Below, piece by piece: positions 3,276-57,203 of a stretch of 64,000 bases of DNA. The stretch spans positions 235,928 to 299,927 of the forward strand of contig CAYMXN010000001.1 of the NCBI GenBank assembly GCA_964394435.1, given 5' to 3'. The notes beneath the pieces were generated by a model, which worked only from the letters and a program-made list of their open reading frames with translations, had not been told where the DNA came from and did not search any database. The position numbers and the translations under genes are program-made. The stretch's first letter is position 1, and each line of letters opens with the position of its first letter. Source of the DNA: an uncultured Candidatus Saccharibacteria bacterium. GTDB lineage: Bacteria; Patescibacteriota; Minisyncoccia; UBA6257; 1-14-0-10-44-23.

Positions 3276-3553
3276 TGTGTATATATTTTACCTTACTTTT
3301 ATTTCTCGTGCTTATTTGTTGGGGATACTTGCAACTCCTGACTCAAACCGTTTAGGGTAAAGAAAGAACATCTCATACGCGGAGGTCCCCTTGAATAGCG
3401 AATCACCTACGGCGTTCAATCACGACAGGGAAATGTCTTGGTATAAGTGGCGTCCGACTCGTCGACACGTTCCTCGGTTTTGGCGTGAGCTACTGGATCG
3501 CTCGTACGGGGCACGAGCTTCGCCACGGTCACAGCCACCATCATCACCACAAA

Positions 3554-3595
3554 CCGCGCACCCCGTAAGGGATGCGCGGCCTTTTTATCATTTTC
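3554..3595 (+). terminator. Intrinsic terminator hairpin (GUAA tetraloop) with T-run
   Basis: ccgcgca/tgcgcgg stem plus ccc/ggg around loop gtaa, followed by cttttta...tttt on the + strand. Confidence 0.6.
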
Positions 3596-3619
3596 CTTCG
3601 AATCTCTAATTCTCAGGAC

Positions 3620-3817
3620 CTAGCGGCCAAGCATTTTCTTTACCTCATCACGACTTACTAAGTCTCGCTTAGCAATCTCGGAAGCGACTGCTTTTTGAAT
3701 CATCTCTTCCATTTGCTTCTGATAGTTTTGCGCCTGACCCATTAAGTCTTTCATCTGCTCTGGCGACATATTTTTCATCATATCTTTGGCCGCCTTCATA
3801 TTGTCAAAAAATCCCAT
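3620..3817 (-). CDS. Small Met/Lys/Gln-rich hypothetical protein (65 aa)
   Basis: ORF track only; helical low-complexity sequence with no recognised family. Confidence 0.45.
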   Translation of the reverse strand: MGFFDNMKAAKDMMKNMSPEQMKDLMGQAQNYQKQMEEMIQKAVASEIAKRDLVSRDEVKKMLGR

Positions 3818-3948
3818 ATTTTTTATGTATTAATTTTTACTCAAACAAGTATACGAAAATTTCTGAAAAAGTGAAATCGTTTATTCATCTTGCCCTTGAC
3901 GGGAAAAAAGAATAGTATAGAAACACCTTTATTAACCCTTAATTACCT

Positions 3949-5631: not shown

Positions 5632-5889
5632 CTATTTTACTCCAGCCCAATTTTTAACGTCTTCATAGCTCACCTCTCCACAAATCGTACTTCCGGTTTC
5701 GGTATTGATATAAAACGGAACGCCGCCGCACTTACCCTGATCATAGCTCTCCATTTTCTTTGCATTCTCTTCGTTGTGCCAAACCTCAAACTTTTCTACT
5801 TTTACTCCCGTCTCTTTTTCGAGTTGCTCGATGAGTGGCTGCATACGTACGCAGTGCGGGCACTCTTTTCCATAAAATTCTAATAACAT
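5632..5889 (-). CDS. Thioredoxin-fold protein (CPHC active site)
   Basis: 85 aa with EFYGKECPHCVRM motif, typical of small thioredoxin/glutaredoxin-like proteins. Confidence 0.75.
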   Translation of the reverse strand: MLLEFYGKECPHCVRMQPLIEQLEKETGVKVEKFEVWHNEENAKKMESYDQGKCGGVPFYINTETGSTICGEVSYEDVKNWAGVK

Positions 5890-5989
5890 ATATGACTAAG
5901 ATATCATATAGTTTTTTGATTGCAAGATTCTTTTGGCTATTTTAAAAAATAAAACGCCCCAACCAATCGCTTGGTGGGGGCGGAAGAAC

Positions 5990-6118
5990 CTAGCGCCGAC
6001 GCCTGGCAAGCATCAACGCAGTCGCTTTGAGAAACTCGAAAGCGACCGGGGCGAGCGCCTCGATTCGCTTAAGCTCCTTGCGATACTCCACCGGATCAAC
6101 CGTGAAGATACGACCCAT
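5990..6118 (-). CDS. GC-rich 42-aa micro-ORF (MGRIFTVDPVEYRKELKRIEALAPVAFEFLKATALMLARRRR)
   Basis: Hand translation. AGGAGG lies 6 nt upstream of the ATG. 29 of 42 codons end in G/C. Stop is followed by hairpin cgcccccaccaa-gcga-ttggttggggcg plus T-run. Possible TTCACA-N18-TATAAC promoter. Confidence 0.45.
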   Translation of the reverse strand: MGRIFTVDPVEYRKELKRIEALAPVAFEFLKATALMLARRRR

Positions 6119-6185
6119 TCGACCCTCCTGGGGTATGAGAAATGACCTGCCTTGTTATACAACAGGCCTATGTCCACTGTGAAAA

Positions 6186-6593
6186 CTACGATTCGTCTGC
6201 GAGTTTGTTTACCGTAATCATTACCGTATCGGGAAGCCTAAATCCCCCAAGCAAAAACTGATACCCACCATCACTTATCGCGATACGCGTGACGCTTCCG
6301 AGTGAGATTTCTTTTGTTTGCGTGAAAGTCGATCCGCTCAAACGAAGATACGCGTTAACCTCTCCCGCCCAAATACACTGTACGTCTTTTGGACAGCGTG
6401 AGTCAGTTACCTGAATAAGCTCGATAGATAATCCATCTGGATACTGAACTGGTACGCCTTTCTCAATCTCAATTTTTGAACCATACTCAACCGTAGTTGG
6501 CTCTGGCAGCTTGTCTTTTTGAATACGAATCCAGGCGAATGCAGCGCCGGCAATTGCGAGAATAAGCAAGATGATTTCGATTTTTTTCTTCAT
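6186..6593 (-). CDS. Membrane-anchored hypothetical protein (DSRCPxDVxCIWAG motif)
   Basis: Trimmed from ORF 6186..6779 to the MKKKIEIILLILAIAGAAF signal-anchor start; the start could instead be 6602. The upstream extension overlaps the neighbouring gene. Confidence 0.6.
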   Translation of the reverse strand: MKKKIEIILLILAIAGAAFAWIRIQKDKLPEPTTVEYGSKIEIEKGVPVQYPDGLSIELIQVTDSRCPKDVQCIWAGEVNAYLRLSGSTFTQTKEISLGSVTRIAISDGGYQFLLGGFRLPDTVMITVNKLADES

Positions 6594-6672
6594 AGATAGC
6601 ATCAGTATATCATGCCGCTGATACTCAAAATAAAACCGCCCACATCGTTTCGACGTGGGCGGACTACGGGTA

Positions 6673-7605: not shown

Positions 7606-7634
7606 TTGACATATATATGCTTATATGCTATAAT
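7606..7634 (+). promoter_or_regulatory. Consensus sigma70-type promoter with extended -10
   Basis: TTGACA (7606-7611), 17-nt spacer, TGcTATAAT (-10 at 7629-7634). The spacer contains the direct repeat tatatgc-t-tatatgc. Confidence 0.7.
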
Positions 7635-7749
7635 GTACCTTAGAAAGCTGGTAAGTGGGACGTTCCCCTTGCTTGAGCTTTAGATCTTTGAGAAGAACAA
7701 GTCTGTGCGCTAAGAACGCACATTACGAAAGAAAGGCTCGGTTACTCGA

Positions 7750-8691
7750 ATGACCATGCACCACGTTCGCGCCACGATCTGCTTCGTGTCCCCCGACAAC
7801 CAGTGGGGGTTCGCGGAGGTCGTCGACTCGGAGACGGGCGACAAGAAGACGTGGATGTGCCACCGTCTCGGCCGTCGCGACGCGTTCGCGACGCAGCAGG
7901 GTACGATCACCTACTCCGACGCGAAGATCGCGTTCGGTCCCTTCCCGCAGCACGGCGACGTCGTCGTCGTGCTGGCGGAGAGGGCTCCCCAGGAGGGCAA
8001 GCAGTACCCCCAGGCCGTGTGGACCACGGCCGAGCAGTACGACCCCTTCATCGAGATCGCCGCGGGCAACCGCGCCGCCTTCGCCGAGTACGCTCGTGAG
8101 CAGGAGCGGCTCGCCGCCAAGCGGGCGGAGCTCGAGCAGAAGCTCGCCACCCGGCGGGTGGAGCTCGAGCCCCAGGTCGGGCCGCTGCAGAAGCGGTTCG
8201 CGATCCAGGACCTGTCCCCCATCTTCAACCCCCTGAAGATGACCCGGGTCGTCGTCAAGGAGCTCGGCCGCGAGCAGATGCTCGCGGAGACCGAGGACGG
8301 CGTCAAGGTCGTCCTGCCCCTGAACGTCCAGCACCTCGTGGTGATCAACCCGCGCGGCCCGTCGATCACGGCGGCGCCGGCGGCGACGCCCCGGATGCTG
8401 GCGATCGGCGAGGTCGCGTACGTGCGCAGCGCGTACGTGAGCATCCTCGAGGAGGACGAGGACCTCGTCCTCAAGATCCAGGCGAACGCCTGGATCAGCC
8501 AGCTCCAGGCGGAGCGGGTGGTGATGACGGGCCTCACGAAGGCCCAGAACACCCTCGCCATGAAGGCGGTGGAGGCCGCGGACACCGAGCGTCAGCGGCA
8601 GGAGGCGATCGCGCGGTCGCACATCAAGGGGCCGAAGCTGTCGCCCCCGCCCAAGGGCGGCATGGCGAAGGCGCTCGCTCGCGGGCGCTAG
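7750..8691 (+). CDS. GC-rich hypothetical protein: N-terminal cold-shock/OB-like segment plus coiled coil
   Basis: 313 aa. ATICFVSPDNQWGFAEVVDSETGDKKTWMCH resembles the CSD pattern (GxVxWF..GFGFI...G.D.FVH). Central EQERLAAKRAELEQKLATRRVELE coiled coil. Sampled lines have 42-43/60 G+C. Has its own promoter and terminator. Confidence 0.7.
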   Translation: MTMHHVRATICFVSPDNQWGFAEVVDSETGDKKTWMCHRLGRRDAFATQQGTITYSDAKIAFGPFPQHGDVVVVLAERAPQEGKQYPQAVWTTAEQYDPFIEIAAGNRAAFAEYAREQERLAAKRAELEQKLATRRVELEPQVGPLQKRFAIQDLSPIFNPLKMTRVVVKELGREQMLAETEDGVKVVLPLNVQHLVVINPRGPSITAAPAATPRMLAIGEVAYVRSAYVSILEEDEDLVLKIQANAWISQLQAERVVMTGLTKAQNTLAMKAVEAADTERQRQEAIARSHIKGPKLSPPPKGGMAKALARGR

Positions 8692-8717
8692 CACGCACTA
8701 CCCCATCCTACGGGGTT

Positions 8718-8762
8718 GGCGCGGATGCAGATCGAAAGATCTTGTGTCCGCGCCTTTTTTAT
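8718..8762 (+). terminator. Intrinsic terminator of the GC-rich cassette
   Basis: ggcgcgga...tccgcgcc stem (inner gatc-gaaa-gatc) followed by ttttttt; abuts the stop of the convergent M23 gene. Confidence 0.75.
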
Positions 8763-9598
8763 TTAAACGCGCTTACAAATTTAAGCGGGTCGATTGAGAT
8801 GCCGTTTACCTTCAGCGAAAGGTGTAAGTGTGGTCCGGAAGCGTACCCGGTTTGCCCAACCGTTCCGATGATAGTTCCTTTTTTTACTTTCTGTCCTGGT
8901 CTTACACTCATCGAGTTCAAATGAAGATAGAGCGTCGCAATACCCTGTCCGTGATCGACGATAACCGAGTTGCCGTAAATCGAATCGAGATACGCTTTTT
9001 GTACTACCCCGTCGTTGATGACCGCCACTGGCGTACCAACTTTAGCAGTAAAGTCTACTCCGTAGTGATGAGTTACTTCGGTGCCAGTTTTGCGCGTCTC
9101 GCCATATGTACTGCCAATATTACGATTATCGTAAAGCGGCAGACCAAACCCACTCGTAAAATATATTTCCGGTGTTTTAGTTTCGAGATCTTTATTAATC
9201 TGGGTATTTGAGGTAGCTAAACTTTGCGTAAGCTGTTTTGGCGTAAGATTAAGCTTTTCTGGCACGGGAAGATTAATAACCGTAAATACTCCCGGGCGAA
9301 CGGTAAGTGTTTTTTCATACGTTGTCTGGTCTTCAAACGTAATGACTAGTTTGTGTGCTCCAGCCTTGGTCGCAAACGCGATTGGCACGAGCGCCCGATA
9401 CCCTCCTTGATACGCGAAGAGCGGAACTTCTTGGGCGTCATACATCACTTTGACTGGCTTTACCTCATTACTTATTTTGATTACGACAGTCTCTCCTTGG
9501 CGCGGGGTAAGTGTAGAAAAATTTGGCGCCGTAGCGTAAGCGTTTATTGCTAGGGCGAGTGCACATATCGAAATTATAAACGGGGATAATCGTCTCAT
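8759..9598 (-). CDS. M23 family (LytM-like) metallopeptidase
   Basis: HYGVDFTAKVGTPV and GPHLHLSLKVNG motifs, with an N-terminal signal peptide. Confidence 0.85.
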   Translation of the reverse strand: MRRLSPFIISICALALAINAYATAPNFSTLTPRQGETVVIKISNEVKPVKVMYDAQEVPLFAYQGGYRALVPIAFATKAGAHKLVITFEDQTTYEKTLTVRPGVFTVINLPVPEKLNLTPKQLTQSLATSNTQINKDLETKTPEIYFTSGFGLPLYDNRNIGSTYGETRKTGTEVTHHYGVDFTAKVGTPVAVINDGVVQKAYLDSIYGNSVIVDHGQGIATLYLHLNSMSVRPGQKVKKGTIIGTVGQTGYASGPHLHLSLKVNGISIDPLKFVSAFK

Positions 9599-19146: not shown

Positions 19147-19704
19147 TTAAAACTTCACACTCACTGGCTGCTTTTCGGCTTCAGAGGCGGCCTCGAAAAA
19201 CTTTTCGGTCGAGAAGTTAAACATACCGGCGACGAGGTTTGACGGGAAGGTCTGAATTTTGGTGTTCAGATCGAGGACGGTGTTGTTGTAGAAACGACGA
19301 GCGGACATCATTTTGTTCTCGGTATCGGAAAGTTCCTGCTGAAGCGCCAAAAAGTTCGCGTTAGCCTTTAAATCTGGATAGTTTTCAGAAACTGCGAATA
19401 AGGTTTTAAGTGTTTGCGAAAGTTGATTTTCAGCACCTGCCTTATCTATTGCCGAGCCGGTCGCACCCATCGCGGCAGCGCGCGCCTTAGTTACGTTTTC
19501 AAAAACTCCCTGTTCGTGTTTCGCATACCCTTTGACGGTTTCAACTACGTTTGGAATTAAGTCGAAACGGCGCTTGCTTTGCACGTCGATATCGGAAAGT
19601 GCCTCGCGCATACGGTTACGCATACGGATGAGCCCGTTAAACGTGCCAATGAGCCAGAGAACCAGAACCGCAAAAACAATAATCAAAATAGTAAGTGTAG
19701 ACAT
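19147..19704 (-). CDS. lemA: LemA family protein
   Basis: N-terminal TM, FNGLIRMRN...SDIDVQSKRRFDLIPN...RRFYN signature; classic LemA-HtpX pairing. Confidence 0.85.
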   Translation of the reverse strand: MSTLTILIIVFAVLVLWLIGTFNGLIRMRNRMREALSDIDVQSKRRFDLIPNVVETVKGYAKHEQGVFENVTKARAAAMGATGSAIDKAGAENQLSQTLKTLFAVSENYPDLKANANFLALQQELSDTENKMMSARRFYNNTVLDLNTKIQTFPSNLVAGMFNFSTEKFFEAASEAEKQPVSVKF

Positions 19705-19798
19705 ATGTGATTAGTTTAGATGTTTTGACCTGCAGGTGCAAGTAATGAGGATTAATGCGGGTCTCAAAGGCTAGAAATCAGCATTTCTACCCCACCCC

Positions 19799-19826
19799 TT
19801 GACAAATATAATAGGTATGCTATACT
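19799..19826 (+). promoter_or_regulatory. Promoter TTGACA-N16-TGcTATACT driving the orphan RNA
   Basis: -35 at 19799-19804, extended -10 TGC plus TATACT at 19818-19826. Confidence 0.65.
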
Positions 19827-19832
19827 AATTTT

Positions 19833-20064
19833 ATCCACGGGTGGGGAAACCAGCCCCGCGGACGCGCAAGCGGCGTTACGAAAATAACGTTGCGGGCGGC
19901 CACCTGGAGAAGTTAAGAAATCACTCTTGGGCTAACGGCCCACCCCGCTGGCACGGCGCGCAAGTGTCGTGCCAGCGGGCTCTACTCTAATTTAGGGGCA
20001 TCTACATCTAATATTCGCCCCGCCTAAAGGCCAGACTCTTCTCAGAGCTCTGGCCGCTTTTTTT
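19833..20064 (+). ncRNA. Orphan GC-rich structured RNA of unknown class (~230 nt)
   Basis: No ORF of 60 aa or more in any frame. Helices: 12-bp cccgctggcacg/cgtgccagcggg (19944-19979) capped by a GCAA tetraloop; gcggcgtta/taacgttgc (19870-19893) with G-U pairs valid only on the + strand; long-range gggtggg/cccaccc (19839-45 / 19939-45). Terminator hairpin 20029-20055 plus T-run. Confidence 0.6.
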
Positions 20065-20683
20065 ATTTAAACGCAATCAGATCAAGAAGCTGCTGGGCGG
20101 TCATCGGCGAGTCCTGGCCAAAACGAATCGAGAGTACTCGGTCGCCAAAACGATTTTGTAAGAAGTAGTGCGTACCACTCGCGCCACAGTTATAGAGCTC
20201 TCCAGTCGGGGTGACCTGAAGCTTGCGACATACTGGGTCTACGCACGGACCCTGGTTTGGGTCGCAAGTTTTTGAAGCAGTTTTTAATAACTTGCCTTCG
20301 ACATAATCAACTGTTTTTGCGTTAGCATTAATCCAGTCGGTTATATTCATAAGCGGATCCTTTTCGCTCACGATAAATCGATACGTGTATGGGTTGTCCC
20401 CTGTTTCAAGGGCCTGATTGATATACTCGCCGTCAATGACGAGGGTTTTTAGTGTACGCTCGTGAACTGAAAATCCATCTGGCAAATTAATCACGTAATC
20501 AGTTTCGCCAGACTTTGAAGGCGCAGAAACATTAATGCGTGAACCAGACGATGCGGTCGACGAAGCGTTCGTGTTGGTTGTTGTTTGCTGAATAGGCAGC
20601 GTACCGCTCGCACTTCCGAATATGAATCCGGCGATTGCAGCAACAACTAATATACCAATAAACGTATAATGACGTTTTTTCAT
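20063..20683 (-). CDS. Membrane-anchored/secreted hypothetical protein
   Basis: N-terminal TM/signal (YTFIGILVVAAIAGFIFGSASG) and a T/S/N-rich linker. Confidence 0.6.
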   Translation of the reverse strand: MKKRHYTFIGILVVAAIAGFIFGSASGTLPIQQTTTNTNASSTASSGSRINVSAPSKSGETDYVINLPDGFSVHERTLKTLVIDGEYINQALETGDNPYTYRFIVSEKDPLMNITDWINANAKTVDYVEGKLLKTASKTCDPNQGPCVDPVCRKLQVTPTGELYNCGASGTHYFLQNRFGDRVLSIRFGQDSPMTAQQLLDLIAFK

Positions 20684-35867: not shown

Positions 35868-36534
35868 TTTTAAACGCGTCGTGCCAGCGTAAACCAAGAT
35901 TCGCCAACGTCTTAAATGCCCATTTTTTCTTTTTTGCATACTGAAAGAGATCCGTCTCAAGACTCACCCTTGTTTCTGCTAACTGCTTCAGATTTGCCTG
36001 TTCACAATACTCACGTAGCGCCTCCACTGGACAACTAAATAAACCTGTCCAAAACTGCTTAAGCGTTTTTGAGAATATTCGCATAAACTTAACTTTGACG
36101 CTCGTTACTTTAAGATACGTTTCCGGCGCGGCCACGAATTGATCAAAAAATGATATATCGACCATCTCTTGCCGTGGCTCAAAATGAATGACGTATGTAT
36201 ATCCGCCCGCCGCTAAGCTAGGCAAGACCCCTCTCCACGCAGCGATTACCCCACACCCCTTATTTACCCGCCCATACTCGTTATCATAAAACGTTTTTTC
36301 ACCACACAGATTTGGCAAAGCTTTGATTGCGCTCATAAGCCGCTGATCATATTGCTTCTCGGGTTCGATCGTATTGTCTACCCAAAATACATCAAAGTCG
36401 TTTGGATACTTTTGTATAACCTCGGCAATTCTACTAAACCCGGCGCAGTATTGCCGGATGCGCTCATCATGATCTGCTGTACTACCGAGCGTTGTAATAA
36501 ATGCCGTTGGAAGAACAATCGCAGTTTTTTTCAT
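35848..36534 (-). CDS. Hypothetical protein in glycan operon
   Basis: 228 aa ORF, tightly packed in the operon; no family recognised. Confidence 0.55.
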   Translation of the reverse strand: MKKTAIVLPTAFITTLGSTADHDERIRQYCAGFSRIAEVIQKYPNDFDVFWVDNTIEPEKQYDQRLMSAIKALPNLCGEKTFYDNEYGRVNKGCGVIAAWRGVLPSLAAGGYTYVIHFEPRQEMVDISFFDQFVAAPETYLKVTSVKVKFMRIFSKTLKQFWTGLFSCPVEALREYCEQANLKQLAETRVSLETDLFQYAKKKKWAFKTLANLGLRWHDAFKNEYINI

Positions 36535-36537
36535 ATC

Positions 36538-43570: not shown

Positions 43571-44263
43571 CTAGTGACCGAAGCGGTAACCGTAACCCTG
43601 TGCACGCGCCCGATGGGCCGCCAACATCACCTCTACAAACGTGTGGCTCATGTCGTACGACCACTCTCCCTCGATCGGGAGCGTATCGAGAGAGTACCAC
43701 TCGAGGCCACTCGCCTCGGCCTGGTTGTCTCCGCTCTTCACCCCGAACACGACCTGCTGGTCGTGCGTACCCGCGTACGTCACGATGTGGGTCGAGGCGT
43801 AGCTGTGCTTGCCCGGGTCGTGGGAGAATCCGTTGCGATTACGACCGTCCATCTGAGGCGCGTACTGGCGCATACAGACCGGATGGGCCCAACCGAGCGG
43901 CAGCTCGACGTCGATGCCGAGATCGCTCTTGTAGTGGAACTTCAAGGCGTCCTCGATGGACTGGTAAAGTCCGACCACGCCGCCGACGATGGCGAGCTTG
44001 CCAGGAAAGCGCCCCGTCCGACGACGGATGACACCGCCGAGCAACTGACCCGTCTTCGGGTCCTGCTTGACGATGACGCCGTCGACACAGGGCACGGCAC
44101 CGAGCTTCGTACGCAAGGGCCAGACCGCTCCCGAGACCCGCCCGTCCGGCTGGACGAGCTGATCGAGATCCGAACGCTGGGCGAGGATCTCGGCGAGTTG
44201 CCGAGTGCTGTAGCCCACCAGCCGATCCGCAAGGTCGGCAGTCGAATCAGTCCTTTCGGACAT
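43571..44263 (-). CDS. GC-rich Nudix-fold, DUF4916-like protein (degenerate Nudix box)
   Basis: Trimmed to MSERTDSTADL (GGAGG SD 6 nt upstream). AVPCVDGVIV...GKLAIVGGVVGLYQSIEDALKFHYKSDLGI follows the Nudix strand-loop-helix layout without the full GX5EX7REUXEEXGU box. 42/60 G+C at 43981-44040. Confidence 0.65.
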   Translation of the reverse strand: MSERTDSTADLADRLVGYSTRQLAEILAQRSDLDQLVQPDGRVSGAVWPLRTKLGAVPCVDGVIVKQDPKTGQLLGGVIRRRTGRFPGKLAIVGGVVGLYQSIEDALKFHYKSDLGIDVELPLGWAHPVCMRQYAPQMDGRNRNGFSHDPGKHSYASTHIVTYAGTHDQQVVFGVKSGDNQAEASGLEWYSLDTLPIEGEWSYDMSHTFVEVMLAAHRARAQGYGYRFGH

Positions 44264-44314
44264 CGGAAACCTCCGGGAAATACCCTCCGCAACCGATTGT
44301 TGTGGATTAGATAT

Positions 44315-44343
44315 GTTATAGCATAAAATATGCCCAAAGTCAA
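44315..44343 (-). promoter_or_regulatory. Promoter TTGACT-N17-TGcTATAAC with GCATA-TTT-TATGC palindrome in the spacer
   Basis: Minus strand reads gaTTGACTttggGCATAtttTATGCTATAACatat. Confidence 0.65.
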
Positions 44344-44396
44344 TCACCTGCTGTTGCGCCCACAAATCAAAAGCCCGCCAGCTGGCGGACTTTTGA

Positions 44397-50034: not shown

Positions 50035-50570
50035 TGATTTGTTTTTCGTAGAAACTTAGTTAAATTCTTTGTAATTAATGTGTGGTTGTTCCGGGAAATC
50101 ACCCCCTCTTTTGGCTCCTTCGCTTACCCGCCACACGTGACGGATAAAAGGATCGACCGCTACAAAAGCTTAAGGATGACTTTAGTAACTTTGTTGAGCT
50201 CTCTTACTTTCTTTTACTCCCGATAAAAGAAAAGAGCTTCGCACAAATGCGAAGCTCTTTTCTAGATTGGAAGTAATACGCTAAACGCAACTAAAATAAA
50301 CCCGCGGCTTGGCGCACAGACCTTTTATATAGAAAGCCTACATAAAAGCACGGCCAAACCGGTTGCGTATACCGTATTACCCCCACTAGACCAAGCCTCA
50401 CACTCGGGCTAATGAACGTACTTACCTAACAGAAACAGTATATCAAATAACGGAGAAATTAGCAATACATGTGGATAAATCCGTCAAGAAGGCGAAGTTA
50501 ACCTCATACACTGCTCATAAGGTATAACGAGCAGGAATCAAATCTATTACACCCCTCCCCCTGGGCAAAA

Positions 50571-56142: not shown

Positions 56143-56976
56143 CTACGAGGCGAGACCCTTCTTCACCGCGGCGAGGACCACCTCGCCGTCGATTCCGCTG
56201 GCACCCCAGTAGGCGGGCTGTCCCGCCTTGCCGAGGCCTGCGCCACCCGACCAGCCACCCAAGTGCTCCTTCAAGCTGGCACAGAGCGCGCCGTCCCCGT
56301 AGAAGTTCACCTCCCCGTCCTTCGAGAGGATGAGGAGCTGGTCGACGGCCCCGTAGAGGCGGTCAGCGACCGCTGAGGTCTTCGAGTGGTCCATGCGGAC
56401 CACCGTCAGACGTCCGTCCACCTCCTTCGCGCCGATGGCGCGGAGGGCCTCTGTCTCGTGCGCGGGGGTCACCCCCTGCGCCGCACGGTCTAGCGCACGA
56501 ATGCGCTCGACCTCGGCGTCAGATGCCCCGAGCGCCCGCATCGCAGGGACGTACCCCGCGTCGTTGGCACCTACGAGCTCGATCCAGCGACGAGTCTGCT
56601 CGCTGGTCGGCATCTTAATCAGTGCCAAAACCTGCTGCACCGCCGGGGGACGGTGCGACTGGTCGCCGTGATGGTCGACGACCACCACCTCAGTCTGCTC
56701 CGGCCACTCCTTGGTCGGCGAGCACTCGACGAAGATGACGCATTCGATGCCGGCACACCGCGTCGACTTACGGTTGTGCTGCCAGAAGTCTGGTCCGGTC
56801 TGGACCAGGATCTCCTCGACCGTGAGGCCAAGGTCGCCTGCGGCGGCGTAGACATGCGACCCCCAGCCCTTGTTGGGCTGGACCCACTTCTCACCCGCGA
56901 GGGTGAGGAGAGAGCGAACGACCTCCATTTCGAGGTCGTTCCCGCCGAGTACGAACAAACGGTTGGCCTTACCCAT
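56143..56976 (-). CDS. GC-rich DHH-family-like phosphoesterase (divergent motifs)
   Basis: Trimmed to MGKANRLFVLGGNDLEME (GGAG SD). Motif spacing fits DHH proteins: NDLE at residues ~13-16 (DxD-like), VECS at ~83-86, VVVVDHHGD at 97-105, C-terminal GGWSGGAG (GGGH-like). 45/60 G+C at 56461-56520. Confidence 0.6.
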   Translation of the reverse strand: MGKANRLFVLGGNDLEMEVVRSLLTLAGEKWVQPNKGWGSHVYAAAGDLGLTVEEILVQTGPDFWQHNRKSTRCAGIECVIFVECSPTKEWPEQTEVVVVDHHGDQSHRPPAVQQVLALIKMPTSEQTRRWIELVGANDAGYVPAMRALGASDAEVERIRALDRAAQGVTPAHETEALRAIGAKEVDGRLTVVRMDHSKTSAVADRLYGAVDQLLILSKDGEVNFYGDGALCASLKEHLGGWSGGAGLGKAGQPAYWGASGIDGEVVLAAVKKGLAS

Positions 56977-57174
56977 CGAAATCTCCAGTTGGTCCGGAAG
57001 GACCGTGAATCCACTTCGGGCGTTTCCGCTCAGGTAGGACGACACCTCTGGATAAGCACTTTATTTTACAACCCGGCTTGGAAGGTTGTCCGCTCTGCGA
57101 GCAGCGTTTTAGGCGCAAATACGCTCAAAACACTGCTCACGAACGGTCTATTTCAATGAACGACTTAGATATTT

Positions 57175-57203
57175 AATATAGCATATTTTTATGCTTTTGT
57201 CAA
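57175..57203 (-). promoter_or_regulatory. Promoter TTGACA-N17-TGcTATATT with GCATA-AAAA-TATGC palindrome in the spacer
   Basis: Minus strand reads gaTTGACAaaaGCATAaaaaTATGCTATATTaaat. Leaves a leader of about 190 nt before the DHH-like ATG. Confidence 0.65.

What the first reader, a model, noticed from the sequence alone, without database searches (positions are those of the whole stretch)
19799..20064. Orphan ~230-nt GC-rich structured RNA with its own promoter and terminator
This region lies between lemA (divergent) and a convergent hypothetical gene. It has no ORF of 60 aa or more and essentially no ATG, but it has a strong promoter (TTGACA-N16-TGcTATACT) and a hairpin plus T-run terminator (20029-20064). 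Helices include a 12-bp perfect stem (19944-55/19968-79) whose loop folds into a G-U-containing mini-stem capped by GCAA, and a second cgc-GCAA-gcg GNRA hairpin (~19864-19873). There is also a 9-bp helix (19870-78/19885-93) with two G-U pairs that would be C-A mismatches on the other strand, plus a long-range gggtggg/cccaccc pairing. I could not match it to RNase P, SRP, tmRNA, 6S or common riboswitch consensus sequences by eye. It is not followed by a gene, so it behaves as a stand-alone RNA.
Basis: seen in the sequence. Interest (0 to 1): 0.62.

Follow-up and report, generated by a model that had tools for sequence, protein, structure and literature searches.

The report
Strain-specific orphan small RNA gene
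The sequence does look like a separately transcribed, tightly folded non-coding RNA of about 230 nt in an uncultured Patescibacteria genome, but its body occurs only in this one strain and sits in a fast-changing gap between genes, so it is an unvalidated lineage-specific small RNA and not a new conserved RNA family.

Summary
There is a near-consensus extended -10 promoter at 19799-19826. About 230 nt follow with no ATG and no credible ORF, and they fold far better than shuffles (z -5.8 on +, -3.3 on -). A hairpin and T7 terminator abut the stop codon of the convergent gene. No Rfam family, tmRNA, phage or plasmid sequence matches.

The RNA body has no homologue anywhere I could search. Among close relatives (GroEL 97-98% identical), the slot between the 206-aa gene and lemA holds one of three things:
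- a different, unalignable structured RNA behind the same promoter and the same first ~20 nt (L085/L086);
- two small ORFs (L084);
- only 44-45 nt (L089-L092, L147).

A third, unrelated promoter-RNA-terminator unit occupies the GroEL-lemA gap in a more distant lineage (L093-L098).

Synonymous sites between the window and L085 are near saturation. Even so, the -35 box, the extended -10 box, the +1 region and the terminator T-run are conserved, while the promoter spacer and the RNA body are not.

Best reading: a real, strongly expressed, lineage-specific sRNA gene that is one allele of a hypervariable accessory slot. Its function is unknown. No helix can be tested by covariation.

The parts
19713..19741 (-). 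Candidate lemA promoter: TTGCAC, 17-nt spacer, TAAACT. Its -10 box ends 8 nt before the lemA ATG, so the mRNA would be leaderless or nearly so. It lies back-to-back with the RNA promoter.
   Evidence: Regex scan. The same elements (TTGCGC-N17-TAAACT) are present in L085. The 128 nt from the lemA start to the RNA start are 66% identical to L085, against 49 +/- 3% for shuffles.
19790..19846 (.). Imperfect 24-nt inverted repeat bracketing the core promoter (CCCCACCCCTTGACAAATATAATA / TACTAATTTTATCCACGGGTGGGG). It could be an operator, or it could be coincidence.
   Evidence: the repeat finder I1, 75% complementary. It is only weakly recognisable in L085.
19799..19826 (+). Sigma-70-type promoter of the RNA: -35 TTGACA, 16-nt spacer, extended -10 TG-c-TATACT.
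   Evidence: 11/12 plus TG. It is one of 6 sites at 11/12 or better in the window. The orthologous L085 promoter is 12/12 plus TG. The boxes are conserved and the spacer is not.
19833..20064 (+). Predicted non-coding transcript of ~232 nt, 58% GC in a 48% GC window. The start at A19833 is inferred from the -10 spacing, not measured.
   Evidence: Fold z -5.84. No ATG, and 9 G-U pairs among 71 in the MFE fold. No ORF with homologues. No Rfam match.
19853..19897 (+). Three-way junction domain: closing GCCC/GGGC (19853-56/19894-97), a small hairpin at 19858-67, and the 9-bp hairpin 19870-78/19885-93 with two G-U pairs. The alternative cgc-GCAA-gcg hairpin at 19863-72 competes with the 9-bp hairpin.
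   Evidence: MFE and centroid folds. This is predicted structure only.
19928..19942 (+). 6-bp hairpin UGGGCU-AAC-GGCCCA.
19944..19979 (+). 16-bp hairpin capped by GCAA: 12 perfect pairs plus 4 pairs that include two G-U. Its 5' half is a diverged direct repeat of 19854-19876.
   Evidence: I2, D1, D2. Pairing probability is about 1.
19980..20016 (+). Two predicted single-stranded copies of a U/A/C-rich motif, CUCUACUCUAAUUUA (19980-94) and AUCUACAUCUAAUAUUC (20000-16), separated by GGGGC. These are the best candidate interaction sites.
   Evidence: Unpaired probability is mostly 0.6 or higher. No target stronger than shuffled controls was found among the 64 translation-initiation regions in the window.
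20029..20064 (+). Intrinsic terminator: bulged stem 20029-20055, then GC, then T7 (20058-20064). It overlaps the stop codon of the convergent 206-aa gene by 2 nt.
   Evidence: -17.5 kcal/mol. GCTTTTTTT is conserved in L085.
19147..19704 (-). lemA, the divergent left-hand neighbour that bounds the variable slot.
   Evidence: Pfam LemA.
20063..20683 (-). 206-aa protein of no known family, the convergent right-hand neighbour that bounds the variable slot.
   Evidence: only 2 clusters in 5.8 billion proteins; no Pfam or NCBIfam hit.

Best explanation
This is a lineage-restricted, independently transcribed small non-coding RNA gene.

**How it is made.** A strong extended -10 sigma-70 promoter lies back-to-back with the lemA promoter. 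It fires away from lemA and produces an RNA of about 230 nt. An intrinsic terminator ends the RNA just before the stop codon of the convergent 206-aa gene.

**What the RNA looks like.** It is built from very stable GNRA-capped hairpins, which should make it long-lived. It exposes two tandem U/A/C-rich single-stranded motifs (19980-20016) and a purine-rich linker (19903-19927). I infer that it acts in trans through these segments, either by base-pairing with mRNAs or by binding a protein.

**Where it sits in evolution.** The gene is one allele of a hypervariable accessory slot between groESL-hyp206 and lemA-htpX. The promoter module is shared with one sister lineage. The RNA body is unique to this strain.

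**What is shown and what is inferred.** Shown: the sequence signals, the predicted stability, the absence of coding potential, the conservation of the promoter, and the non-conservation of the body. Inferred: that it is transcribed, that it acts in trans, and what it binds.
For: **Transcription signals and fold**
- The promoter scores 11/12 plus TG and is among the 6 best in 128 kb of both strands.
- The terminator hairpin and T7 run are present.
- Fold z is -5.84 on the + strand and -3.29 on the - strand, with 9 G-U pairs. The tile ranks 3rd of 188.

**No coding potential**
- There is no ATG, every frame has stops, there is no peptide similarity to the other slot RNAs, and there is no Pfam hit.
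- The only library hits to the 49-aa ORF are translated repeats with no DNA similarity.

**Promoter under selection**
- Four-fold degenerate sites between the window and L085 are 48-54% identical in hyp206, lemA and groEL.
- Even so, TTGACAA, TATGCTATA-T and TTTTATCCAC are identical. The 10-nt promoter spacer is scrambled and the RNA body aligns no better than shuffles.
- L085 also ends in GCTTTTTTT, and its different body also folds well (z -3.95).

**Other observations**
- Identical copies occur in contigs from two other sequencing runs.
- The exposed tandem motifs are predicted to be unpaired.
Against: - There is no expression data.
- No homologue of the body was found in any of these searches:
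  - 80 Patescibacteria lemA loci;
  - the closest relatives;
  - 709 kb of related loci searched with a covariance model;
  - viral contigs, four internal patterns;
  - phage and plasmid collections.
- Because there are no homologues, no helix has covariation support.
- Relatives with lemA 92-94% identical at the protein level lack any RNA gene in the slot, so the RNA is dispensable.
- No mRNA target in the window pairs better than shuffled controls.
- In L085 the conserved 5' end is predicted to be buried in a helix, which argues against a shared 5' seed.
- An internal direct repeat (19854-76 and 19943-70) looks like recent, unconstrained sequence growth.
Confidence: 0.5

Rival explanations
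1. It is a cis-acting insulator cassette. On this view the selected parts are the transcription signals: two back-to-back promoters, which give lemA-htpX its own start, and a convergent strong promoter plus terminator, which stop read-through from groESL-hyp206. The RNA body would be a free-evolving by-product with no function of its own.
For: - The conservation pattern is exactly promoters plus T-run, with nothing in between.
- In relatives with the empty slot, hyp206 and lemA are co-directional and only 44-45 nt apart, so they are probably co-transcribed. The cassette would uncouple them.
- The body diverges at or beyond the neutral rate and contains an internal duplication.
Against: - A 230-nt body is not needed for insulation.
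- All three unrelated bodies in this slot fold far better than shuffles (z -5.8, -3.95, -4.9). Unselected sequence would not be expected to do that.
- The promoter is one of the strongest in the window, which suggests the product matters.
Confidence: 0.2
2. It is a decaying remnant or RNA component of a mobile or accessory element that once occupied the slot, for example a toxin-antitoxin, defence or foreign-gene cassette. It would still be transcribed from the element's strong promoter but would no longer be functional.
For: - The slot turns over very fast. L084 and L089 are 95% identical in lemA DNA, yet one carries two small ORFs and the other only 44 nt.
- The body is more GC-rich (58%) than the genome (48%).
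- The same TATGCTATAxT strong promoters sit in front of GC-rich orphan genes elsewhere in the window.
Against: - There are no terminal repeats or target-site duplication, and no second copy in the window.
- No frame shows protein similarity to anything real.
- There is no match in phage, plasmid or viral collections.
- The L084 ORF pair matches no toxin-antitoxin family.
- The promoter has been kept intact across saturated synonymous divergence.
Confidence: 0.13
3. It is a highly divergent member of a known housekeeping or widespread RNA class (6S RNA, SRP RNA, RNase P RNA, tmRNA, or a riboswitch or leader) that the Rfam models miss in Patescibacteria.
For: - Its size, its stand-alone promoter and terminator and its high stability resemble 6S-type RNAs.
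- Rfam sensitivity is lower in poorly sampled phyla (general knowledge).
Against: - There is no Rfam hit even at E<=10, apart from chance hairpin matches. ARAGORN finds no tmRNA.
- The fold is multi-branched with local hairpins, not a rod with a central bubble.
- It is absent from sister genomes at the same locus, and a covariance model finds nothing in 709 kb of related DNA.
- There is no downstream gene for a riboswitch to control.
Confidence: 0.03
4. It is chance sequence with no biological role. On this view a GC-rich intergenic filler happens to fold well and happens to be flanked by promoter-like and terminator-like strings.
For: - It is a single-strain sequence with no conservation of the body.
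- Consensus scans are not evidence of function.
Against: - The promoter boxes are conserved with a scrambled spacer at saturated neutral divergence.
- Fold z is -5.8.
- The same architecture (promoter, structured body, terminator) occurs in three lineages at this junction.
Confidence: 0.1

Closest known systems
Lineage-specific trans-encoded bacterial sRNAs with an intrinsic terminator (the general class; for example enterobacterial core-genome sRNAs such as OmrA/OmrB, whose ends are conserved while the middle varies)
   Same: - Stand-alone gene in an intergenic region.
- Sigma-70 promoter and a hairpin plus U-run terminator.
- No ORF.
- Conserved promoter and extreme 5' end with a variable interior.
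- Rapid gain and loss between related genomes.
   Different: - It is about 230 nt long and much more heavily structured than typical 50-150-nt base-pairing sRNAs.
- No seed or target could be identified.
- The shared 5' end is not predicted to be accessible in the L085 version.
- Whether this organism has an RNA chaperone was not examined.
6S RNA (SsrS, Rfam RF00013 and related models)
   Same: An abundant-looking, stable RNA of about 200 nt transcribed from its own promoter and not followed by a regulated gene.
   Different: - No covariance-model match.
- The predicted fold is branched, not a long irregular helix with a central bubble.
- It is not conserved even between sister species.
Large orphan structured RNAs found by comparative genomics (raiA, HEARO/omega RNA, OLE, GOLLD, ROOL)
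   Same: GC-rich, multi-helix architecture with GNRA-capped hairpins, and no assigned function.
   Different: - Those classes are defined by many homologues with covariation, and often by a characteristic neighbouring gene.
- This RNA has no homologue, no covariation and no associated protein gene.
- None of those Rfam models match.
Retron msr-msd and other reverse-transcriptase- or nuclease-associated guide or template RNAs
   Same: A structured RNA of about 200 nt with possible pairing between its ends and a long perfect hairpin, located in a variable accessory slot.
   Different: - There is no reverse transcriptase, IscB/TnpB or recombinase gene next to it. The neighbours are lemA, htpX, groESL and an unknown secreted-looking protein.
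- It ends in a terminator instead of leading into an ORF.

Membership tests
Any Rfam 15 family (including RNase P, SRP, tmRNA, 6S, riboswitches, raiA, HEARO) | Covariance-model score at or above the family's gathering threshold | tested here: not met
   The whole window yields only 3 tRNAs. The region at E<=10 gives a best hit of 19.9 bits against a gathering score of 35, for a viral hairpin model. ARAGORN finds no tmRNA.
6S RNA | Rod-like secondary structure with a large central bubble flanked by closing and terminal stems | tested here: not met
   The MFE, centroid and pairing probabilities give a multi-branch fold with four local hairpins.
6S RNA | Conservation as a housekeeping gene among related genomes | tested here: not met
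   It is absent or replaced at the syntenic site in L084, L085/86, L089-92 and L147. No hit in 709 kb of related loci.
Stand-alone bacterial sRNA gene | Own promoter | tested here: met
   11/12 plus TG. The boxes are conserved in L085, where the promoter is 12/12 plus TG.
Stand-alone bacterial sRNA gene | Rho-independent terminator at the 3' end | tested here: met
   A stem of -17.5 kcal/mol followed by T7.
Stand-alone bacterial sRNA gene | No translated ORF | tested here: met
   No ATG. Stops in all frames. The 49-aa GTG ORF has no Pfam hit and only spurious library hits.
Stand-alone bacterial sRNA gene | Discrete transcript detected | not testable with these tools
   No transcriptome data are available here.
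Stand-alone bacterial sRNA gene | Identifiable seed or target, or a protein partner | tested here: inconclusive
   Duplex energies against the 64 translation-initiation regions in the window are no better than for shuffled RNA segments. Only 64 kb of the genome could be searched.
Evolutionarily conserved structured RNA (comparative-genomics standard) | Homologues whose helices are supported by compensatory changes | not testable with these tools
   No homologue was recovered. The only other copies are 100% identical.
Retron or other RT-associated ncRNA | Reverse transcriptase gene immediately downstream | tested here: not met
   The next gene downstream is the convergent 206-aa ORF. There is no RT domain in the neighbourhood.
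Type I / type III toxin-antitoxin RNA | Small hydrophobic toxin ORF overlapping the RNA, or tandem antitoxin repeats next to a toxin gene | tested here: not met
   The small ORFs of 20 aa or more are not hydrophobic toxin-like peptides, and there is no adjacent toxin gene.
REP/MITE-like repeated palindromic element | Multiple dispersed copies, terminal inverted repeats | tested here: not met
   There is a single copy in the 64-kb window and no terminal inverted repeats. The rest of the genome was not available.

The most novel reading that the evidence does not exclude
The groESL-lemA junction of this Patescibacteria clade could be a dedicated, promoter-anchored RNA slot. A conserved strong promoter and +1 region would drive interchangeable, non-homologous, highly structured RNA bodies. 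These bodies would be swapped between strains by recombination through the flanking genes, like alleles of an RNA-only accessory system, for example one involved in immunity, self/non-self discrimination or host interaction in an episymbiont.
Probability: 0.08. Interest if true: 0.65.

Novelty: new member of a known kind. Interest (0 to 1): 0.3.

Why it matters
Almost nothing is known about regulatory RNAs in Patescibacteria (the candidate phyla radiation). These organisms have tiny genomes and short intergenic regions, so a 358-nt gene-free gap carrying one of the strongest promoters in the region is likely to be used.

If the transcript is confirmed, it would be a rare candidate sRNA in this group. 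It would also be a clear case of promoter conservation combined with complete turnover of the RNA body between sister species.

As it stands it is a single-strain prediction. It cannot be validated by comparative analysis, and it does not open a new class.

Tried and rejected
**Searches for a known family or a homologue**
- **Known RNA families.** Rfam at gathering scores and at E<=10 for the window RNA, the L085 RNA and the L093 RNA, plus ARAGORN, gave nothing.
- **Synteny search through lemA.** I fetched 80 genome loci. nhmmer found no hit, and a divergent RNA gene upstream of lemA is not a general feature of these loci.
- **Metagenome scan.** I scanned for the conserved promoter plus 5' end (TGCTATANTNNTTTTATCCAC). 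All 47 hits were chance matches without the -35 box or any similar context. The one viral hit lies inside an ORF.
- **Other collections.** Four internal 19-22-mers against viral contigs, and blastn against phages and plasmids, found nothing.
- **Covariance model.** A model of the 5' 150 nt found no hit in 709 kb of related loci, including the L085 and L093 RNAs.

**Alternative identities for the region**
- **Toxin-antitoxin guess.** I guessed from memory that the two ORFs in the L084 slot were HicB/HicA. Pfam and NCBIfam do not support this, and I withdrew it.
- **Hidden small protein or pseudogene.** Six-frame comparison of the three slot RNAs showed no similarity. The 49-aa ORF hit only translated tandem repeats, with no DNA similarity.

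**Function and shared motifs**
- **Target prediction.** Duplex folding against the translation-initiation regions in the window gave nothing beyond shuffled controls.
- **Motifs shared with L085.** GAGAAG and AAUCACUCU are shared between the window and L085 RNAs, but at chance level (E 0.18-0.4) and not in a congruent structural position.

**Literature**
- **Paper search.** A search for Patescibacteria/CPR non-coding RNAs found nothing relevant.

Full report
**1. What is in the sequence**

- **Promoter.** It reads TTGACA, 16 nt, TG-c-TATACT (19799-19826), scoring 11/12 plus the extended -10 TG. Only six sites in the window, counting both strands, reach 11/12 or better.
- **Transcript.** Taking A19833 as the inferred start, about 232 nt follow with no ATG. 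There are stops in every frame, and the longest sense ORF is a 49-aa GTG ORF without a ribosome-binding site.
- **Fold.** The plus strand folds to -108.7 kcal/mol, against -80.0 +/- 4.9 for dinucleotide shuffles (z -5.84). The minus strand folds less well (z -3.29), consistent with 9 G-U pairs among the 71 predicted pairs. In a tiling of the window with 230-nt pieces (background z -0.53 +/- 1.51, n = 186), this piece ranks third of 188.
- **Robust elements.** These are a three-way junction (19853-19897) containing the 9-bp hairpin with two G-U pairs, a 6-bp hairpin (19928-42), a 16-bp GCAA-capped hairpin (19944-79), and the terminator (stem 20029-55, T7 at 20058-64).
The cgc-GCAA-gcg hairpin and the 9-bp helix share bases and cannot coexist. 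The 5' GGGUGGGG has two competing partners (19939-45 and 20018-25).
- **Single-stranded motifs.** Two copies of a U/A/C-rich motif (19980-94 and 20000-16) are predicted to be unpaired.

**2. It is not a known RNA**

- Rfam 15 at gathering scores finds only three tRNAs in the window.
- At E<=10 the region gives only sub-threshold hairpin matches.
- ARAGORN finds no tmRNA.
- blastn against phage and plasmid collections finds nothing.
- Four internal patterns against viral contigs find nothing.

**3. Who carries it**

GroEL and LemA homologues place the organism in Patescibacteria/Parcubacteria-like bacteria. Contigs from two other sequencing runs carry the RNA at 100% identity and are the same strain.

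The states I recovered for the junction between groEL and lemA (where hyp206 is present, the slot between hyp206 and lemA) are:

| Loci | Relatedness to the window | Slot content |
|---|---|---|
| window, L081, L082 | same strain | the RNA described here |
| L085/L086 | GroEL 98% | same promoter (12/12 plus TG), same TTTTATCCAC start and same GCTTTTTTT end, but a ~210-nt body that cannot be aligned; it folds with z -3.95 |
| L084 | GroEL 97% | two small ORFs (108 and 97 aa) with no family assignment |
| L089-L092 | LemA 92% (L089), 82% (L091) | a 44-nt spacer (confirmed between hyp206 and lemA in L089 and L091; L090 and L092 are too short to show hyp206) |
| L147 | LemA 82% | a distant hyp206 homologue, then a 45-nt spacer |
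| L093-L098 | LemA 76% | no hyp206; a 431-nt GroEL-lemA gap with a third, unrelated unit of promoter, ~250-nt structured RNA (z -4.9) and 13-bp terminator, in the same orientation |
| L087, L149, L152 | GroEL 81-82% | no such unit |

Eighty more distant lemA loci show no general pattern of a divergent RNA gene. nhmmer with each of the three RNAs, and a covariance model of the window RNA, find only self-hits in everything fetched. The single metagenome scan, keyed on the conserved promoter and 5' end, returned only chance matches.

**4. What is conserved and what is not**

- Between the window and L085, four-fold degenerate sites are 48-54% identical in hyp206, lemA and groEL, and lower (33%) in htpX. 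Neutral sites are therefore close to saturation.
- Against that background, the 128 nt from the lemA start to the RNA start are 66% identical, compared with 49 +/- 3% for shuffles.
- Within the promoter, the -35 box (TTGACAA), the extended -10 box (TATGCTATA-T) and the first transcribed bases (TTTTATCCAC) are identical. The 10-nt spacer between the boxes is scrambled.
- A candidate lemA promoter on the other strand (TTGCAC/TTGCGC, 17 nt, TAAACT, ending 8 nt before the ATG) is also kept.
- The RNA body aligns no better than shuffled sequence: 31 of 200 shuffles score at least as well.
- The few shared short motifs are at chance level.

This is the signature of selection on transcription signals. 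There is no detectable selection on the sequence of the body, and no common architecture between the two bodies.

**5. The slot is a recombination and turnover hotspot**

- lemA DNA identities give the order W | (L085 | (L084, L089)). The two lineages that share the promoter module are not sisters.
- L084 and L089 are 95% identical in lemA DNA but carry different slot contents.
- L089 and L091 share an identical 44-nt spacer although their lemA genes are only 79% identical.
- The neighbouring trxB-groES gap also varies in gene content between these genomes.

The RNA is therefore best described as one allele of an accessory, fast-changing locus, and it is dispensable.

**6. Interpretation**

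The most likely reading (about 0.5) is a real, strongly transcribed, intrinsically terminated, very stable small RNA that is specific to this lineage. I expect it to act in trans through its exposed single-stranded segments. What it binds is unknown, and no target signal exceeds shuffled controls within the 64 kb available.

The main rival (about 0.2) is that only the transcription signals matter. On that view the cassette uncouples lemA-htpX from the upstream groESL-hyp206 operon, and the body is a by-product. The conservation pattern fits this. However, it does not explain why three unrelated bodies at this junction are all unusually well folded.

The other readings are less likely:
- a decayed remnant of an accessory element (about 0.13);
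- chance (about 0.1);
- a divergent housekeeping RNA (about 0.03).

**7. Novelty and score**

This is a new, unvalidated member of a familiar kind: an orphan bacterial sRNA gene. It is not a new class.

The conserved promoter with interchangeable structured bodies is a modestly interesting evolutionary observation in a phylum where sRNAs are essentially uncharted. Without a transcript or any homologue the finding cannot go further.

Interest is 0.3. The most novel reading still open is a dedicated promoter-anchored RNA slot whose bodies are exchanged like alleles of an RNA-only accessory system (probability about 0.08).

Noticed in passing
window 7606-8750; 43571-44365; 56143-57203: Three orphan genes of 64-70% GC sit in a 48%-GC genome: 313 aa on the + strand, 264 aa on the - strand and 300 aa on the - strand. 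None has a Pfam hit. Two of them lie about 130-140 nt downstream of near-perfect TTGACA-N17-TATGCTATAxT promoters (7606, 12/12; 57203, 11/12) and have their own terminators. They look like horizontally acquired, strongly expressed genes. The tile at 8285 has the most extreme fold z-score in the window (-7.1).
   Followed up: partly
L085 12352-12594 (minus strand); identical in L086: The sister lineage has a perfect-consensus promoter (12/12 plus TG) and the same +1 region as the window RNA. It drives a completely different structured RNA of about 210 nt (z -3.95) with no Rfam match.
   Followed up: yes
L093 2587-2865 (minus strand); identical in L094-L098: A third, unrelated unit occupies the 431-nt GroEL-lemA gap of a more distant lineage: a promoter, a structured RNA of about 250 nt (z -4.9) and a 13-bp terminator. 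It has no Rfam match.
   Followed up: partly
L084 6730-7354: In this close relative the slot holds two co-directional small ORFs (108 and 97 aa). The arrangement resembles a toxin-antitoxin pair, but neither ORF has a Pfam or NCBIfam match.
   Followed up: yes
L089 / L091 spacer between hyp206 and lemA: The 44-nt spacers are identical although the flanking lemA genes are only 79% identical in DNA. By hyp206, L091 groups with L085. This is evidence of recombination across the locus.
   Followed up: partly
window 19854-19876 and 19943-19970: There is a diverged direct repeat inside the RNA (CCCCGC..GCGCAAG.G.CGT). The junction domain and the 16-bp hairpin appear to be related by an internal duplication.
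   Followed up: no
window 19713-19741 (minus strand): The -10 box of the candidate lemA promoter ends only 8 nt before the ATG, so lemA may be translated from a leaderless or nearly leaderless mRNA.
   Followed up: no
window 8716-8760 and 20029-20075: Both inserted units (the GC-rich 313-aa gene and the RNA) end in a hairpin plus T-run directly abutting TTATTTAAACGC. That string is the reverse complement of the last codons (...AFK, stop) of two different convergent genes (the 279-aa gene at 8759-9598 and hyp206).
   Followed up: no
window 3276-3948, 5884-6672, 35961-36537, 50035-50570: There are four further gaps of 536-789 nt without an ORF of 80 aa or more. That is unusually long for a small genome. 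A terminator-like hairpin lies at about 3545-3587 (+ strand). I did not examine these gaps for RNAs or small genes.
   Followed up: no
L087 11639-11891: The GroEL-lemA spacer of this lineage is filled with GC-rich palindromes, including a GTCATTGCGAG-type motif. It has no promoter in the RNA orientation and looks like a REP-like element.
   Followed up: no
L153 600-2515: An unrelated ENA contig carries GC-rich tandem arrays with 256-nt and 180-nt periods, which were called as a 339-aa protein. This was the source of the spurious protein-library hit to the 49-aa ORF.
   Followed up: yes
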